From an uncultured Gemmatimonadales bacterium (GTDB lineage: Bacteria > Gemmatimonadota > Gemmatimonadetes > Longimicrobiales > RSA9): 64,000 bases of DNA. Positions 11,307-18,192 of the stretch are shown here, piece by piece. Position 1 is the stretch's first letter. Each line of letters opens with the position of its first letter. The stretch spans positions 64,001 to 128,000 of the forward strand of contig CAWCRS010000009.1 in NCBI GenBank assembly GCA_963798085.1, in the 5' to 3' direction. The notes under the pieces are model-generated. The model searched no databases, was not told the DNA's origin, and saw only the letters and a list, made by a program, of their open reading frames with translations. The position numbers and the translations under genes are program-made.

Positions 11307-12703
11307 TCAGGCCGCTTCCGCCAGCGCCGCGACTTCGCGCAGACGGGGTGAAATAATGGGCGATTCCGGCAGCACGCTGGCCGGGACTTCCACGGTCTTG
11401 AGGCCGTTCCCCGTGATGCACAGAACGACATCGTCGTCCGGCCGGAAATGGCCGGCGGCAGCCAGGCGCAGGGCCGCGGCAACGGTGACACCACCCGCAG
11501 TTTCGGCGAACACGCCACACGTCTCGGCCAGCAGGCGGATCGCCGCGATCAGCTCCGCATCGCTCACGGCGGCCGCCCAGCCGCCGCTCTCGCGAATGGC
11601 GCGAATGGCGGTGGGTGCATCCGCGGGATTCCCGATAGCGAGCGAGCGCGCAATCGTGGCTGGAATGACGGGCTGTATGCGGCGCGGCGCCGCTCTCGAC
11701 CGCGCGCACGATCGGTGCGCAGCCTTCCGCCTGTGCGCCGAAGAGGCGCGGCAGCTCGCCTTCCGCGAGTGCAGCGTCGCGCACCTCGCCGAAGCCTTTC
11801 GCGAGTTTCGTGACCAGTGAGCCGCCGGCCATGGGTGCTACCACGGCACTCGGGAATCGCCAGCCGCACTGTTCGGCGATCTCGAACGCCATCGTCTTCG
11901 AGCCTTCGCCGTAGTAGCTGCGCAGATTCACATTCACGATGCCCCAGCCGAAGCGGTCGGCAACCTGTGCGCACAGCCGGTTCACATCGTCGTAGGTACC
12001 TCGCACCCGCACCAGGCGAGGCGCATACACGACCGGTGCCGATGATCTTGCCCGGCTCGAGGTCCGCGGGAATGAAGATCCAGGCGGTGAGGCCAGCGCG
12101 CGCGGCGTGCGCCGCGACCGCATTGGCGAGGTTGCCCGTCGATGCGCAGCCGATGGTGTCGAGGTGAAAACCCGCGGCGGCATTGATGGCGCTGGAGACG
12201 ACGCGATCCTTGAAGGAGAGCGATGGATGCGAGACCGCATCGTTCTTGATCCACGCGCTCGCCACGCCCAGTCTGGCCGCGAGTGCAGGCGCTTCCAGCA
12301 ACGGCGTGAAGCCGCTGTCCGGCGAGTGCAGCGGTGCGCCGTCGTAGGGCAGCCACTCGGCATAGCGCCAGAGTGAAGGCGGGCGGCGCGCGATTTCGTC
12401 GCGCCCGGGCAGCGTGCGCTGCGCATCATAGACGGGTTCGAGCGGACCCAGGCAGTGGGCGCAGATGGCGAGCGGCTCCGCGGCGAAGTGCGCGCCGCAC
12501 GCCTTGCAGGACAGCGGGTGAGGGACCGGGGGTATCGCCCCGCCTGTGCGCCCCGAGACGGCCACTCTGGTGGAACGATCCCTCGCCGGCTGGCAGCCGG
12601 GACGTTCACCGCCACCTCCCGCATCACTCGACCCTGTGAATGCGAGGGCAGCGGTGCCCGCCCCGGCAAATGCCGTCGTTGCTGCTGCGGTCTGCTGACT
12701 CAT
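11307..12703 (-). CDS. thrC: Threonine synthase-like PLP enzyme, split by frameshifts near 12030 and 11680
   Basis: CKACG/CAHC zinc ribbon, GFTPL, SFKDR (PLP Lys), ASTGNLA, EGSKTMAFEIAEQ, ITGNGLKT spread over three frames; ATG overlaps the panB stop. Confidence 0.85.
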
Positions 12704-13829: not shown

Positions 13830-13887
13830 GGTCGCTTTTTAGCATTTGTTTAACGTGGCTGCAATATGCGGCAAATCGCCACGACCG
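13829..13887 (-). ncRNA. SAM-II (SAM-alpha) riboswitch aptamer
   Basis: Minus strand reads UCGUGGCGAUUUGCCGCAUAUUGCAGCCACGUUAAACAAAUGCUAAAAAG: P1 CGUGGC/GCCACG, GAUUU loop, UUGC and 3' GCUAAA, matching the SAM-II H-type pseudoknot consensus. Confidence 0.85.
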
Positions 13888-13903: not shown

Positions 13904-13932
13904 ATGATGCAACGTCGCAGGCGCCGTGTCAA
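13904..13932 (-). promoter_or_regulatory. Sigma70-type promoter for the SAM-II leader
   Basis: TTGACA (13932-13927), 17-nt spacer, CATCAT (13909-13904); the -35 overlaps the stop of the upstream gene. Confidence 0.65.
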
Positions 13933-14573
13933 TGCCTTTGCTGCCGGGCCGTGTCCGGCAACGCCACGCTCGTGCCCGCACGCGTGTAGCCCCACGGGGG
14001 CGCGGGGCGCAGCGCCGCGCGCGCGAGGTCGAAATCCACCCGGAACTGCTCGGCGCCAGCCGAACGCACAGCGTACGTCAGCCGCGTGTGCGGCACCAGC
14101 TCGAGCGTCCACAACGTGGAAGCCGCCGACGGAACCTCGTGCACGGTGTGCTCATCGGCGCGGAATTCCTGGCGTGACTTCGTGCCCTCGTTCCACGTCT
14201 CACCGCCATAACCGCTGTACTCGGTGGGGCTGCCATCGCGAGCGTGCAGCTGGTGCTTCAGCGTGAGCCCGCTGCCGGACGCGGCCACCACCCAGACGCG
14301 CGAACGATCCTCGCCCACATGGAAGGCGAGGCGCAGTTCGCGCGGGTAGCACTGCCACACCTCCAGCACCAGGGGCTGGCCGACTAACGCGCTGTCAGCG
14401 GGCGCTGCCTGTACCAGGCGACCCGGAAAGGCACGCCCGCACAGCGAGCGCAGCTGGTTCCAGAAAGCGCGCTGCACCGGGTTCGCCACTGCGGGAGGCC
14501 GGCCGCAGCCCGCGAGTACCGCCAGCAGGAAGCTCAGCGTCAGCAGCACGCCCCGGTCCCACCGTGAAGACAT
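13929..14573 (-). CDS. Hypothetical secreted lipoprotein
   Basis: LAVLAGC lipobox; FWNQLRSLCGRAF, HVGEDRSRVW, YGGET motifs. Confidence 0.75.
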   Translation of the reverse strand: MSSRWDRGVLLTLSFLLAVLAGCGRPPAVANPVQRAFWNQLRSLCGRAFPGRLVQAAPADSALVGQPLVLEVWQCYPRELRLAFHVGEDRSRVWVVAASGSGLTLKHQLHARDGSPTEYSGYGGETWNEGTKSRQEFRADEHTVHEVPSAASTLWTLELVPHTRLTYAVRSAGAEQFRVDFDLARAALRPAPPWGYTRAGTSVALPDTARQQRH

Positions 14574-14683: not shown

Positions 14684-15342
14684 CCCGCACGACGCATGGG
14701 GTCGCACATGACCCGACAATCCGTACCTTGACGACAAAGGAAACACCCCCCGATGCGGATACTCATAGGCGAACGTCACGAACCATGCGCCGAAGGGCGT
14801 GCGGGTCGCAGCACAGGACCCAATGGCAAGGCGCGGGGTTCGCGGGTCTGGACCGGGACGGTGCTGGTGAGGCGCGATGATGGGCTTCCCGCAGCGACAC
14901 CCCCGCACACCGCCGCCGGCGGCCCGAACGACGAGAAGTCCTTAGAGACCTCAACCGTGTGTGTGCGTCCGGTGAGCCCCGTCACCCGACACATCAAGCC
15001 GAGCGCACACTCCCGGTCGCGGTGACTCTGAAGCGGCAGTCGCAGTCGCAGTAACGCCGACGAGCATCGCACACCTCACGGCGCCGGGACCAACACATCC
15101 CGGCGCCGCCCCTCCATCGCACCGCCGAGAGCGGAGAGCGCGCGGAAAACGTCCAGGGACGCAGCGCGCTGCGCGAGCTTTGCCGGGCCGCGGCAATAGC
15201 GCTCTAACGACACGTTACGCAGGGAGCGGCAGCCGGCAGCTCCGTGCGGTTCGGCTTCCCGGGTTCCGTTGAGACGGCTTCGGGAAGACGTGAACGCGGG
15301 TGGCACGAATAGGAGGTCAAGATCGACGCTGAATCGTGCCGC
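14684..15342 (+). ncRNA. Candidate large structured ncRNA (~660 nt), class unknown
   Basis: No credible ORF; many nested and long-range complementary segments with A-rich linkers on the + strand (see findings). Confidence 0.55.
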
Positions 15343-15522
15343 CGTGCAGTGCGCGCGCGACGCCGGCTGGTGGCGCGTCTTTCAACGGATCAACTGACCA
15401 GCGGATCAACGGATCACAGGCATCCGATCCAGCGCTCTCCACGCGCGGCCGCGCGTTCATGCACCTCCCGCCCTCCCCGGCGCCCTCCTCGCCCTCCGCG
15501 GTGAGGAGGGCGGACCGCGCGA

Positions 15523-18192
15523 CTAACGCAGGGTAAGGATGGGGTCGATGCGGAGGGCGCGGCGCGCGGGCAGCCAGGTGGCGGTGGCGGCCACCAGGAG
15601 CACGAGCAGGGCAACCGCGGCGAACGTCGCTGCGTCCGTTGCGGACACGCCCCAGAGCAGGCCGGACAGGAGTCGCGTTCCGGCCAGAGCGATCACCAGC
15701 CCGATCAGCACGCCCAGCACGGCGAGCGAGAGACCCTGGCGCAGGACCAGGCGCAGCACGTCGCCTCGACTCGCACCGAGCGCCATGCGCACGCCCAGCT
15801 CACGAGCCCGCTGTGACACGGTGTAGCTGAGTACGCCGTGTACGCCGATCAGCGCCAGCAGCAGAGCCACCAGCGCGAATGCGCCCAGCAGCCGCATGGT
15901 CGAGCGTTCGCGCGCGATCGAGCGCAATACCGTGGCATCGAGCGTGGCAATGTCGAACACCGCCAGTTCGGGGTCCGTCGCGCGCACCGCGGCCAGCACC
16001 TGCGGCGCCAGGCTCAACGGGTCCGCCAATGTGTGCACCAGAATGCTCGCGGAGTTGAAGGGCGCCTGCGGCAGCGCCAGGTAAATGGCGGGCGGTGCAC
16101 TGGCATCGAGGCCGTAGAAGTGCTCATTGCCCACCACACCCACGATTTCACGCGTTGCGCCCCAGAACGTCACGTGCTGACCCAGCGCCCGGCCATCCGG
16201 GAAGAAGCGACGTACGGCGGCCTGGTTCAGCAGCGCCACCTTCGGCGCCTGCGGCCCATCCCCTTCGCTCAGGTCGCGGCCGTCCAGCACCGGCACACGG
16301 AGCGTGCGCATGTAATTGGCTGTTACGGCGCGCACGGCGATCTCGGGCTGGGTCGCGACTTCGGCTTCGCGGCCCGCAATCACGAAACTGTTCGTGAAAC
16401 CCGCCGCCATTGGCGAATAGGCGGACAATGCCGCCGATTGCGCGCCCGGCAGACGCGCCAGCCGTTCCAGCAGATCGGCGTAGAAGCGCTGCTGCCGCGG
16501 CCAGTTCGGGTGGATGCGATAGTCACGCGGATAGCGTGAGTCCGGCAGCTGCACTTCCATGCGCAGCACGTGATCCGCGCGGAACCCCGGGTCCACGGCG
16601 CGCAACGCCGCCACCGTGCGCACCAGCAGCGCCGCGCCCATCACCAGGACCACCGACACGGCGACTTCGGCTACCACCAGCAGGCGGCGCGCGTGCTGCC
16701 TCGCCTGCCCCGGCAATGCGCCGCGATCCGATTCGGCCTTGAGGACCGCCTGCAGATTCAGGCGCCGGGCCTGCAGCGTGGGCAGCAGACCGAAGCCGAT
16801 GCCCACGAGCGCCGAGACCAGCGCGGCCACCGCGAGCACACGCACATCAATGCTCACCAGGTCCGCGCGCGGCATGTCCGCGGGCAACAGGGCGACGAGC
16901 CCGCGCAGGCCGACCCCCGCCAGCACCACACCCACCAGCGCGGAGGCCAGCGCCAGCACGAGTCCTTCCACGAGGAACTGCCGGGCCAGCCGGCCCCGGC
17001 CGGCGCCCAGGGTGGCGCGCACCGCCACTTCGCGGGCGCGCGCCACGCCCCTCGCCAGCAGCAGGTTCGCGACATTGGCACAGGCGATCAGCAGCAGCAG
17101 CCCGACACCGCCCAGCAGCACCAGCAGCGCCGGGCGGGAGCGCGCGAAGACCACGTCCAGCAGCGGCTCCACGAATACGCCGCGGCCGGCGTTGCTGCGC
17201 GCGTACTCCTGCTCCAGCCGGGCCGCCACGCCCGCCATGTCCGACTGCGCCGCCGCCAGTGCCACGCCGGGTCGCAGCCTCCCTAACACCGTGATGGGAT
17301 GCGTGGCGCGCGGCAGCGACGAGGGCTGCAGCTGCGCCGGCTCCCAGATGCGCACGCCGGCATCCGGAAACTCGAGTTCCTGCGGCACCACGCCCACGAT
17401 GACGCTGGCGCTGTCGTCCACCAGCAGCTCGGTGCCGATCACCGACCGTTCGCCGCCCAGGCGCTCGCGCCAGAACCGCTCCGCAACCAGCACCACGCGG
17501 GGCGCGCCCGGCAGGTCATCGGCGGCCGTGAGATCGCGGCCCAGCAGCGGCTGCACACCCAGCACCTGCAGCAGCGCGTGCGAGACGTCGGCCACGTGCA
17601 CGCGCTCCGGATCACGACCGCGCTGCATCAGGTTGCGGTCCTGCGTGAGGAAGAAAGCCAGGTCCTGGAAGGAATGGCTGCGCTCGCGGAAGTCGTAATA
17701 GTCGGGCACTGACGACGGCTCACGCACCGTGCCCGAGACGCGATCGTTCTCCCAGACGATCACCAGACGCGAGGGATCGCGCCAGGGCAGGGGCCGCAAC
17801 AACACACCATTAACAACGCTGAAGATCGCGGCCGCGGCCGCCATGCCCAGACCCAGCGTCAGTACGGCCACCAGGGTGAAGCCGGGGGAGGCGCGCACCC
17901 GGCGCAGCGCGTAGCGCAGATCCTGGCGCAGCTCATCGGCTCGCAGCCGGCGGCGCCGCCGCCGCTCACGCTGTGCCGCCGCCGGCACCAGAGCGGCACG
18001 GGCCCGCGCCACGTCGCCGAACTCACGCAGCGCCTCGGCCCTCGCCTCCGCGGGTGTCCGCCCGCCCGCCTCCAGCTCGCGCGCCCGCGACTCCAAATGG
18101 AAGCTCACTTCTTCGTCGACATCGCGGGCCGCGTTCTCGCGCGGCGGTCGTGGCAGCCGCAGCCAGCGCCTGAGTCCATCGAAAGCGGGCAT
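15523..18192 (-). CDS. ADOP-type duplicated ABC permease (MacB/FtsX domains)
   Basis: EEVSFHLE prefix, LRQDLRYALR, ACANVANLLLAR, ELGVRMALGA, WLPARRALRIDP. Confidence 0.93.
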   Translation of the reverse strand: MPAFDGLRRWLRLPRPPRENAARDVDEEVSFHLESRARELEAGGRTPAEARAEALREFGDVARARAALVPAAAQRERRRRRRLRADELRQDLRYALRRVRASPGFTLVAVLTLGLGMAAAAAIFSVVNGVLLRPLPWRDPSRLVIVWENDRVSGTVREPSSVPDYYDFRERSHSFQDLAFFLTQDRNLMQRGRDPERVHVADVSHALLQVLGVQPLLGRDLTAADDLPGAPRVVLVAERFWRERLGGERSVIGTELLVDDSASVIVGVVPQELEFPDAGVRIWEPAQLQPSSLPRATHPITVLGRLRPGVALAAAQSDMAGVAARLEQEYARSNAGRGVFVEPLLDVVFARSRPALLVLLGGVGLLLLIACANVANLLLARGVARAREVAVRATLGAGRGRLARQFLVEGLVLALASALVGVVLAGVGLRGLVALLPADMPRADLVSIDVRVLAVAALVSALVGIGFGLLPTLQARRLNLQAVLKAESDRGALPGQARQHARRLLVVAEVAVSVVLVMGAALLVRTVAALRAVDPGFRADHVLRMEVQLPDSRYPRDYRIHPNWPRQQRFYADLLERLARLPGAQSAALSAYSPMAAGFTNSFVIAGREAEVATQPEIAVRAVTANYMRTLRVPVLDGRDLSEGDGPQAPKVALLNQAAVRRFFPDGRALGQHVTFWGATREIVGVVGNEHFYGLDASAPPAIYLALPQAPFNSASILVHTLADPLSLAPQVLAAVRATDPELAVFDIATLDATVLRSIARERSTMRLLGAFALVALLLALIGVHGVLSYTVSQRARELGVRMALGASRGDVLRLVLRQGLSLAVLGVLIGLVIALAGTRLLSGLLWGVSATDAATFAAVALLVLLVAATATWLPARRALRIDPILTLR

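What the first reader, a model, noticed from the sequence alone, without database searches (positions are those of the whole stretch)
14684..15342. Candidate novel large (~660 nt) structured ncRNA
Seen: an intergenic region with no credible protein ORF and a hierarchy of complementary segments. The 5' domain is closed by CCCGCACG (14684-91)/CGTGCGGG (14798-805) and CGCATGG/CCATGCG, with inner hairpins (GGGTC..GACCC, ATCCGTA/TGCGGAT). A large domain is closed by GTTCGCG (~14838)/CGTGAAC (~15289). GACCGGGA (14851-58) pairs with TCCCGGTC (15011-18). GTGAGG..GCGATG (~14867-79) pairs with CATCGC..CCTCAC (~15065-79), crossing the previous helix, which would be a pseudoknot. Further stems: GTGTGCG/CGCACAC, GGCGCCGGGA/TCCCGGCGCC, AGAGCG/CGCTCT, TTGCCG/CGGCAA, CTTCCCG/CGGGAAG, and a 3' hairpin GGCACGA/TCGTGCC. 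Linkers are A-rich on the + strand, and both flanking genes are on the - strand, which fits an independent transcript. It lacks the signatures I know for RNase P, tmRNA, SRP, group I/II introns, OLE and raiA. Inference: an RNA in the size class of GOLLD/ROOL/OLE/MISL, possibly a new class.
Basis: partly seen in the sequence, partly recalled or inferred. Interest (0 to 1): 0.85.

Follow-up and report, generated by a model that had tools for sequence, protein, structure and literature searches.

The report
Orphan RNA with intron-like core
A gene-free stretch of about 640 bases may encode a folded RNA that carries a worn trace of a self-splicing intron's core, but no relative of it was found, so it remains an unproven one-off.

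Summary
The named helices are all present and the stretch is non-coding, but they are no more numerous than chance gives at 67% GC (65 perfect helices of 6 bp or more against 70 in shuffles). Only the 3' half folds better than shuffles (z about -2.6). New: matrices built from six real group I introns of this phylum pick Q, R and S elements on the + strand, in order, with a paired P7 (0 of 2000 shuffles, 0 of 3972 other intergenic windows), but at 22 bits against 47-64 for real introns. Host gene, P1, P9, terminal G and the A-rich junctions are missing; Rfam finds nothing. No homologue was found in any genome, phage, plasmid or metagenome search, so there is no covariation and no expression evidence. 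Best reading: a stranded, non-splicing group I-derived RNA (about 0.4); rivals are chance and an unrelated new RNA.

The parts
   Evidence: non-coding; composition and folding; unique in the genome
14684..14837 (+). 5' region with three small hairpins (14699-714, 14719-60, 14803-21); not more stable than chance
   Evidence: z -0.9 and -0.1; pair probabilities
14800..14805 (+). alternative P4 5' strand (6 of 6 pairs with 14888-93, 82 nt between, the spacing seen in 23S IB-type introns)
   Evidence: sequence; comparison; inference
14838..14844 (+). 5' arm of long-range helix with 15289-95; sits where P15 of the lariat-capping ribozyme would sit
   Evidence: pair probability 0.0 in nested folding; topology from PMC2219692 passages; inference
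14851..14858 (+). candidate P3 5' strand, 8 of 8 pairs with 15011-18, three bases before the candidate P4 strand 14862-67
   Evidence: inference
14862..14867 (+). candidate P4 5' strand, same six letters as in two real 23S introns; 5 of 6 pairs with 14888-93
14882..14897 (+). Q-like element (P4 3' strand and start of P6)
   Evidence: picked by matrices from real introns, about 6 bits
14937..14952 (+). R-like element: P6 3' strand, 3-nt J6/7, bulged A and P7 5' strand
   Evidence: 11.4 and 14.6 bits; 9 and 2 of 1000 shuffles reach it
14961..15010 (+). stable hairpin between R and the candidate P3 3' strand (P7.1 position)
   Evidence: pair probability 0.98; fold
15019..15288 (+). array of 6-7 hairpins with A/C-rich loops; the only part that folds better than chance
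15307..15319 (+). S-like element; 15313-18 pairs 6 of 6 with 14947-52 (P7); the 262-312 pair is a G-A mismatch
15327..15380 (+). 54-base exact copy, sense strand, of the middle of an intact GNAT acetyltransferase gene at G000:C3:869562-869615
   Evidence: junctions also present in an independent soil-run contig
15381..15430 (.). low-complexity intergenic repeat motif common across this genome
   Evidence: 299 copies of the 8-mer core
13929..14573 (-). left flank: hypothetical secreted protein, no Pfam family, divergent from the RNA
15523..18192 (-). right flank: MacB/FtsX-type ABC permease, convergent with the RNA

Best explanation
It is a stranded descendant of a group I intron: an ORF-less RNA element on the + strand that keeps the order and some letters of the group I core (P4-P6, three-base J6/7, bulged-A P7 closed by a distant S strand) and has grown large peripheral hairpin domains, but lies in no gene and cannot splice, because the 5' splice helix, the A-rich docking junctions, P9 and the terminal G are absent. 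It came into this lineage recently enough to be missing from the same site in the one congener, and its 3' end was later overwritten by a 54-base patch copied from a GNAT gene during DNA repair (Ku-type end joining or microhomology patching), a process that has left similar patches all over this genome. Shown: non-coding, Q-R-S/P7 signature above chance, missing splice parts, patch identity, patches elsewhere, absence at the congener's site. Inferred: descent from an intron, the fold of the core, inability to splice, the repair route. Not known: whether it is transcribed.
For: Matrices from six real group I introns of this phylum, built without the candidate, choose 14882, 14937 and 15307 on the + strand, the places proposed beforehand from pairing (note: 1 of 150 and 0 of 150 shuffles). 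With a P7 rule that all 6 real introns pass, the candidate scores 22.5 bits; 0 of 2000 shuffles and 0 of 3972 other intergenic windows reach it; RNase P RNA, tmRNA and the - strand fail. Its R element differs from that of the 23S intron in L359 at few places and shares the less common GACC/GGUC form of P7; two P7 pairs differ on both sides and still pair. A pattern taken from the candidate fetched two real 23S group I intron loci (L224, L238) among 120 otherwise chance rows. The congener G461 has the left gene next to RidA with neither RNA nor permease. In 11 of 16 isolated repeat pairs examined, ours included, one copy is in a gene and the other outside; two patches from one source lie side by side in opposite orientations; Ku is encoded.
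Against: The signature is weak: 22.5 bits against 47-64 for real introns, and the best other window scores 22.2. On sequence alone 15 of 3976 windows equal it. A loose topology descriptor also fits 18 of 600 shuffles and 82 intergenic strands. Rfam RF00028 finds nothing at E<=10, and a covariance model of the candidate core does not recognise any real intron in the 7 intron-bearing loci among 10 searched. The core region folds no better than shuffles (z -0.07), the group I-constrained fold costs about 32 kcal/mol before pseudoknots, and a competing 12-pair helix (14867-79/15065-79) uses the same bases. Two P4 registers fit. I tried several families before this one, so the odds need discounting. 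No homologue exists to test covariation.
Confidence: 0.4

Rival explanations
1. No RNA element: ordinary GC-rich intergenic DNA in which helices and a weak Q-R-S pattern occur by chance, next to a repair patch and a common repeat.
For: Helix counts and whole-length folding equal shuffles; 7 of 45 sampled gaps fold better than the candidate's best 450-nt window; gaps of this length are common (314 of 1492); no promoter or terminator found; no homologue; absent at the congener's site; change density in the related soil contig is no lower in the RNA (3 in 179 bases) than in patch and tail (3 in 209).
Against: 3' half z -2.5 to -2.7; A over T skew 0.22-0.29 against at most 0.26 in 45 gaps; Q-R-S/P7 test; tmRNA here also has a weak z (-1.2); the 3 changes in the soil contig are two unpaired bases and one G-C to G-U (one contig of depth under 5, weak).
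Confidence: 0.26
2. A real large structured RNA of a new kind, unrelated to group I introns, acting as a free scaffold or protein-binding RNA like other ornate bacterial RNAs.
For: Size, composition like RNase P RNA, hairpin array with repeated A/C-rich loops; no Rfam family; the same genome carries another uncatalogued 290-nt RNA family.
Against: Such RNAs come as families; none of the searches found a second member; the profile of the 290-nt family does not match it; it does not explain the Q-R-S/P7 order.
Confidence: 0.22
3. An active free-standing group I-derived ribozyme, with a P15-like helix as in the lariat-capping ribozyme, that binds or joins to other RNAs; the 54-base piece is its captured substrate or guide.
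For: The piece starts 8 bases after P7, in sense, where a 3' exon would be; 15299-308 pairs with 15334-43 over 10 bp (34 of 1500 matched controls do as well) and six helices of >=10 bp form with the piece (7 of 400 controls); helix 14838-44/15289-95 has the P15 position described in PMC2219692.
Against: Similar patches occur genome-wide without this RNA and in both orientations; duplex energy is matched by 11% of controls; no reverse transcriptase (PF00078) or TnpB-like gene found in this 90% complete genome; no terminal G or P9 before the junction; the joining strand to P7 is 17 nt, against 3 nt in GIR1.
Confidence: 0.07
4. A cis-acting leader or 3' region on the - strand, between the ABC permease and the hypothetical gene.
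For: Both flanking genes are on the - strand; two 140-nt - strand windows reach z -2.3 and -3.0.
Against: Whole - strand z -1.2; G-U pairs and A-rich loops favour the + strand; the congener has the same gene without this sequence; no riboswitch family match.
Confidence: 0.05

Closest known systems
Group I introns, IB-type in bacterial 23S rRNA (examples L359, L360, L224, L238, L363; Rfam RF00028)
   Same: Order Q-R-S, 3-nt J6/7, bulged A, GACC/GGUC form of P7, same P4 5' hexamers, ORF-less size range
   Different: Not inside a gene; no P1/IGS, P9 or terminal G; A-rich J3/4, J4/5, J5/4 replaced; 262-312 pair broken; 355 nt between R and S without an ORF; P3 3' strand does not follow R directly; score a third to a half of real introns
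Lariat-capping ribozyme GIR1 (PMC2219692)
   Same: Group I-like core outside a splicing role; a helix in the P15 position; mRNA-like sequence just 3' of P7
   Different: GIR1 is about 180 nt, eukaryotic, inside a twin-ribozyme intron before a homing endonuclease gene, with a 3-nt J15/7 and a P9; none of these holds here
Ornate large ncRNAs (GOLLD, ROOL, OLE, raiA) and the 290-nt family of earlier findings e1-7862718 / e1-7863441
   Same: Large, ORF-free, hairpin-rich, free-standing
   Different: No Rfam match; no match to a profile of the 290-nt family; no family, promoter or terminator shown
Short templated patches (SPDIR, bioRxiv 10.1101/2023.11.22.568220; filler capture in Ku/LigD end joining, recalled)
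   Same: 54 bases is within the stated 3 to about 100 bp range; donor is ectopic and intragenomic; imperfect similarity lies near both junctions
   Different: The allele before the event is unknown, so crossover points and the pathway are not shown

Membership tests
Group I intron | P, Q, R, S elements in order | tested here: inconclusive
   Q, R, S found in order above chance but weak; the P element is not picked at either proposed place
Group I intron | P7 helix with bulged A and G-C pair of the G-binding site | tested here: inconclusive
   6 of 6 pairs 14947-52/15313-18 with bulged A14946, but the 262-312 pair is G-A; all 6 real introns have G-C
Group I intron | P3-P7 pseudoknot with P4-P6 domain | tested here: inconclusive
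   An 8-bp P3 with 3-nt J3/4 can be drawn; 18 of 600 shuffles also fit; no covariation possible
Group I intron | Interrupts a gene; P1 with U-G at a 5' splice site | tested here: not met
   No tRNA, rRNA or ORF spans it; 5' flank does not match the GNAT gene
Group I intron | P9 and terminal G after P7 | tested here: not met
   Only 8 bases separate P7 from the copied patch; real introns have a P9 hairpin there
Group I intron | Match to RF00028; reciprocal model match | tested here: not met
Group I intron | Self-splicing with G cofactor | not testable with these tools
   needs an in vitro assay
Lariat-capping ribozyme (GIR1) | P3-P15 pseudoknot, 3-nt J15/7, upstream of a homing endonuclease mRNA | tested here: not met
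   A 7-bp helix has the P15 position, but the joining strand is 17 nt and no endonuclease gene follows
Group II intron, incl. permuted forms | Domain V with catalytic triad, domain VI, boundary motifs | tested here: not met
   No Rfam group II match at E<=10; no domain V by inspection; features from PMC8637638 passages
RNase P RNA / tmRNA | Family model match | tested here: not met
   No match here; ordinary copies lie elsewhere in the genome
GOLLD / ROOL / OLE / raiA | Family model match | tested here: not met
290-nt two-pseudoknot family of earlier findings | Profile match | tested here: not met
   A profile from 7 members finds 2 copies in G000 and none in the candidate at E<=5
TnpB/IscB guide RNA, DGR template, retron | Cognate nuclease or reverse transcriptase gene | tested here: not met
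   None adjacent; PF00078 and PF07282 not found in the 90% complete genome; IscB not searched

The most novel reading that the evidence does not exclude
A bacterial free-standing RNA built on a rewired group I core (P15-like helix, large P7.1/P8 domains, no splice sites) that is expressed and has been kept for a new job, such as cleaving, capping or joining other RNAs: a bacterial counterpart of the lariat-capping ribozyme. The double changes in P7 that keep pairing while docking adenosines are gone fit selection on a changed core better than plain decay.
Probability: 0.12. Interest if true: 0.9.

Novelty: new variant of a known kind. Interest (0 to 1): 0.45.

Why it matters
If the core is real and expressed, it would be a group I-derived RNA living outside any gene in a bacterium, a form I did not find described in the searches run (listings only), and a direct test of how splicing ribozymes are repurposed. 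If it is a relic or chance, it matters little. The side result is solid and general: this genome holds many 30-60 base copies of gene fragments at unrelated sites, which can mimic guides or spacers and mislead scans.

Tried and rejected
Homologue searches, all without a relative: BLAST in 300 phylum genomes with the patch included (short hits only), 150 order genomes (best non-self hit 38 bases, E 1.2e-5), 399 phylum genomes (0 at E<=1e-5), with only 2-3 candidates scored per genome; a 20-base pattern in 400 genomes (70 genomes with three mismatches, none closer, control similar); covariance model R1 in 149 order, 72 family and 111 class genomes, overlapping sets (best non-self hit 29.9 bits is the start of a der GTPase gene); phages and plasmids; 7 viral scans (58, 1, 17 and 1 loci checked and chance); 2 metagenome scans (3 chance loci). 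Sequencing runs: no RNA holder listed, so nothing on expression; one soil sample has a contig over 15148-15535 only. Guide, spacer or template reading of the patch: dropped. Decayed protein gene or mosaic of captured genes: no coding signal, no second exact piece. Circularly permuted raiA-like or 290-nt family: short look-alike words only. Promoter and terminator scan: none. The 6-of-6 P7 rule was fitted after seeing the candidate (2 of 6 real introns meet it) and was replaced by the rule; 'level 2' had the P4 strand one base out of register and is disregarded. One search included the candidate in its matrices and is used only to spot real introns.

Full report
Setting. The window is G000:C9:64001-128000 of a 6.2-Mb, 67% GC, 90% complete genome in 12 contigs. 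The stretch lies between a hypothetical gene (13929-14573, -) and a MacB/FtsX ABC permease (15523-18192, -). No frame scores as coding. Rfam gives no match inside it at gathering score or at E<=10; ARAGORN finds nothing in the window. Normal RNase P RNA and tmRNA genes lie elsewhere.

The observation. All 14 named segment pairs are present. They are not enriched: 65, 17 and 4 perfect helices of >=6, 7 and 8 bp against 70.0, 19.7 and 5.2 in 300 shuffles. By part: 5' region -0.9, middle -0.07, 3' half -2.7. Controls from the same genome: RNase P RNA -4.7, tmRNA -1.2, two 290-nt RNAs -2.7 and -1.6, so a weak z does not exclude a pseudoknotted RNA. Of 45 gaps drawn from 433, 7 fold better than the candidate's best 450-nt window; its A over T skew (0.22-0.29) is at the top of their range.

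The 3' end. Bases 15327-15380 are an exact sense copy of the middle of an intact GNAT gene at C3:869562-869615; the gene has 46-51% identical relatives in 4 of 5 genomes searched, so the gene is the donor. A contig from an independent soil run spans 15148-15535 with 6 differences, so the junctions are not an assembly error (depth 2.8). I first read the piece as a guide or captured exon. A genome-wide search changed that: of 258 two-copy exact repeats of 30-200 bases, 56 have unrelated flanks; I examined the 16 that were not tRNA, IS or simple-repeat pieces, and in 11, ours included, one copy is in a long GC3-rich frame and the other is not. A looser search lists 26 rows, among them two pieces from one source locus side by side in opposite orientations, which points to DNA-level copying. 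Ku is present; no RVT_1 or TnpB-like gene was found. SPDIR makes patches of 3 to about 100 bp at microhomologies (bioRxiv 10.1101/2023.11.22.568220, passages); filler capture in end joining is recalled knowledge. The hairpin may be original, with the patch landing on a similar arm; that is untested. The tail 15381-15430 is a common intergenic repeat.

The core. By eye I proposed a group I-like arrangement (note): P3 14851-58/15011-18, P4 14862-67 or 14800-05 with 14888-93, P6 14894-98/14938-41, a 3-nt J6/7, and P7 14947-52/15313-18. A loose descriptor fits the + strand only, but also 18 of 600 shuffles. For an independent test I took real introns: 7 of 150 phylum genomes have RF00028 matches, and 6 introns from 5 loci of published genomes were used. 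Matrices from them pick Q at 14882, R at 14937 and S at 15307 (1 of 150 and 0 of 150 shuffles; R alone 9 and 2 of 1000); the P element is not picked at either proposed place. On sequence alone 7 of 2000 shuffles and 15 of 3976 intergenic windows equal the score. With a P7 rule passed by 6 of 6 real introns, 0 of 2000 shuffles and 0 of 3972 other windows do, though the runner-up has 22.2 bits against 22.5, and real introns have 47-64. The candidate shares the GACC/GGUC form of P7 with 23S IB-type introns; its two outer P7 pairs differ from L359 on both sides and still pair, while the 262-312 pair, G-C in all six, is G-A. Against: RF00028 does not see it; a model of its core does not see real introns; the core region is not more stable than chance; a 12-pair helix competes for the P4/P5 bases; host gene, P1, P9, terminal G and the A-rich junctions are absent. 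Defining features are from PMC3984707 (passages). It is therefore not filed as a group I intron; it looks like one in its core only. The helix 14838-44/15289-95 has the place of P15 in GIR1 (PMC2219692, passages), but the strand to P7 is 17 nt, not 3.

Relatives. None found; the searches and their limits are listed under Tried and rejected. In the only congener (G461, 91% complete) the left gene is followed within about 0.5 kb by RidA, with no RNA and no permease, so the block was gained here or lost there. Without homologues there is no covariation, and no RNA run holds the sequence, so expression is untested.

Earlier findings. Two notes describe a 290-nt RNA family in this phylum. I found it in the lipB-rnhA gap of G000 and at a second site, built a profile from 7 members, and it does not match the candidate.

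Literature seen. Passages: PMC8637638, PMC2219692, PMC3984707, bioRxiv 10.1101/2023.11.22.568220. Part 1 of 6: PMC12968392. All others as search listings only. No supplement was opened; motif tables in supplements of large RNA surveys, and papers outside the library, could hold this RNA.

Verdict. Real structured element about 0.7; group I-derived, non-splicing relic about 0.4; chance about 0.26; unrelated new RNA about 0.22; active ribozyme tied to the patch about 0.07. It is a single sequence with one intriguing but weak signature: worth a profile search and one in vitro experiment, not yet a new class. Interest 0.45.

Noticed in passing
G000 genome-wide, e.g. C7:559769, C12:10974, C8:286656 and 286708, C9:27846, C7:93353 and 93387, C8:442784, C8:479465: Many 30-60 base exact or near-exact copies of gene fragments sit at unrelated, mostly intergenic sites; some come in pairs from one source locus, once in opposite orientations; Ku is encoded. 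Looks like frequent templated patching in DNA repair.
   Followed up: partly
G000:C7:1734690-1734975 (-) (L181) and C7:1417740-1418020 (-): Two copies of an uncatalogued 290-nt structured RNA, one between convergent lipB and rnhA, also in 6 relatives' loci; no Rfam match at gathering level; probably the family of e1-7862718.
   Followed up: partly
window 13835-13883 (-): SAM_alpha riboswitch match (36.5 bits, cut-off 36) upstream of a panB-like gene, an unusual host and target for this family.
   Followed up: no
window 11307-12703 (-): Threonine synthase-like gene split over two frames near 11990; frameshift or assembly error.
   Followed up: no
G000:C7:200600-208400: Long CRISPR array; no spacer matched the candidate in the BLAST.
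   Followed up: no
G000:C2:383000-445000 and C12:1700-7500: Large array of attC-like repeats, suggesting a chromosomal integron.
   Followed up: no
window 15381-15430 and 15480-15512; genome-wide: Families of low-complexity tandem intergenic repeats are abundant in this genome, and one patch at C9:27846 lies next to the same motif as the candidate's tail.
   Followed up: no
L359, L360, L363, L355, L356, L358: Group I introns in 23S rRNA and tRNA genes of this phylum, several below Rfam's cut-off and some loci with two or three introns.
   Followed up: partly
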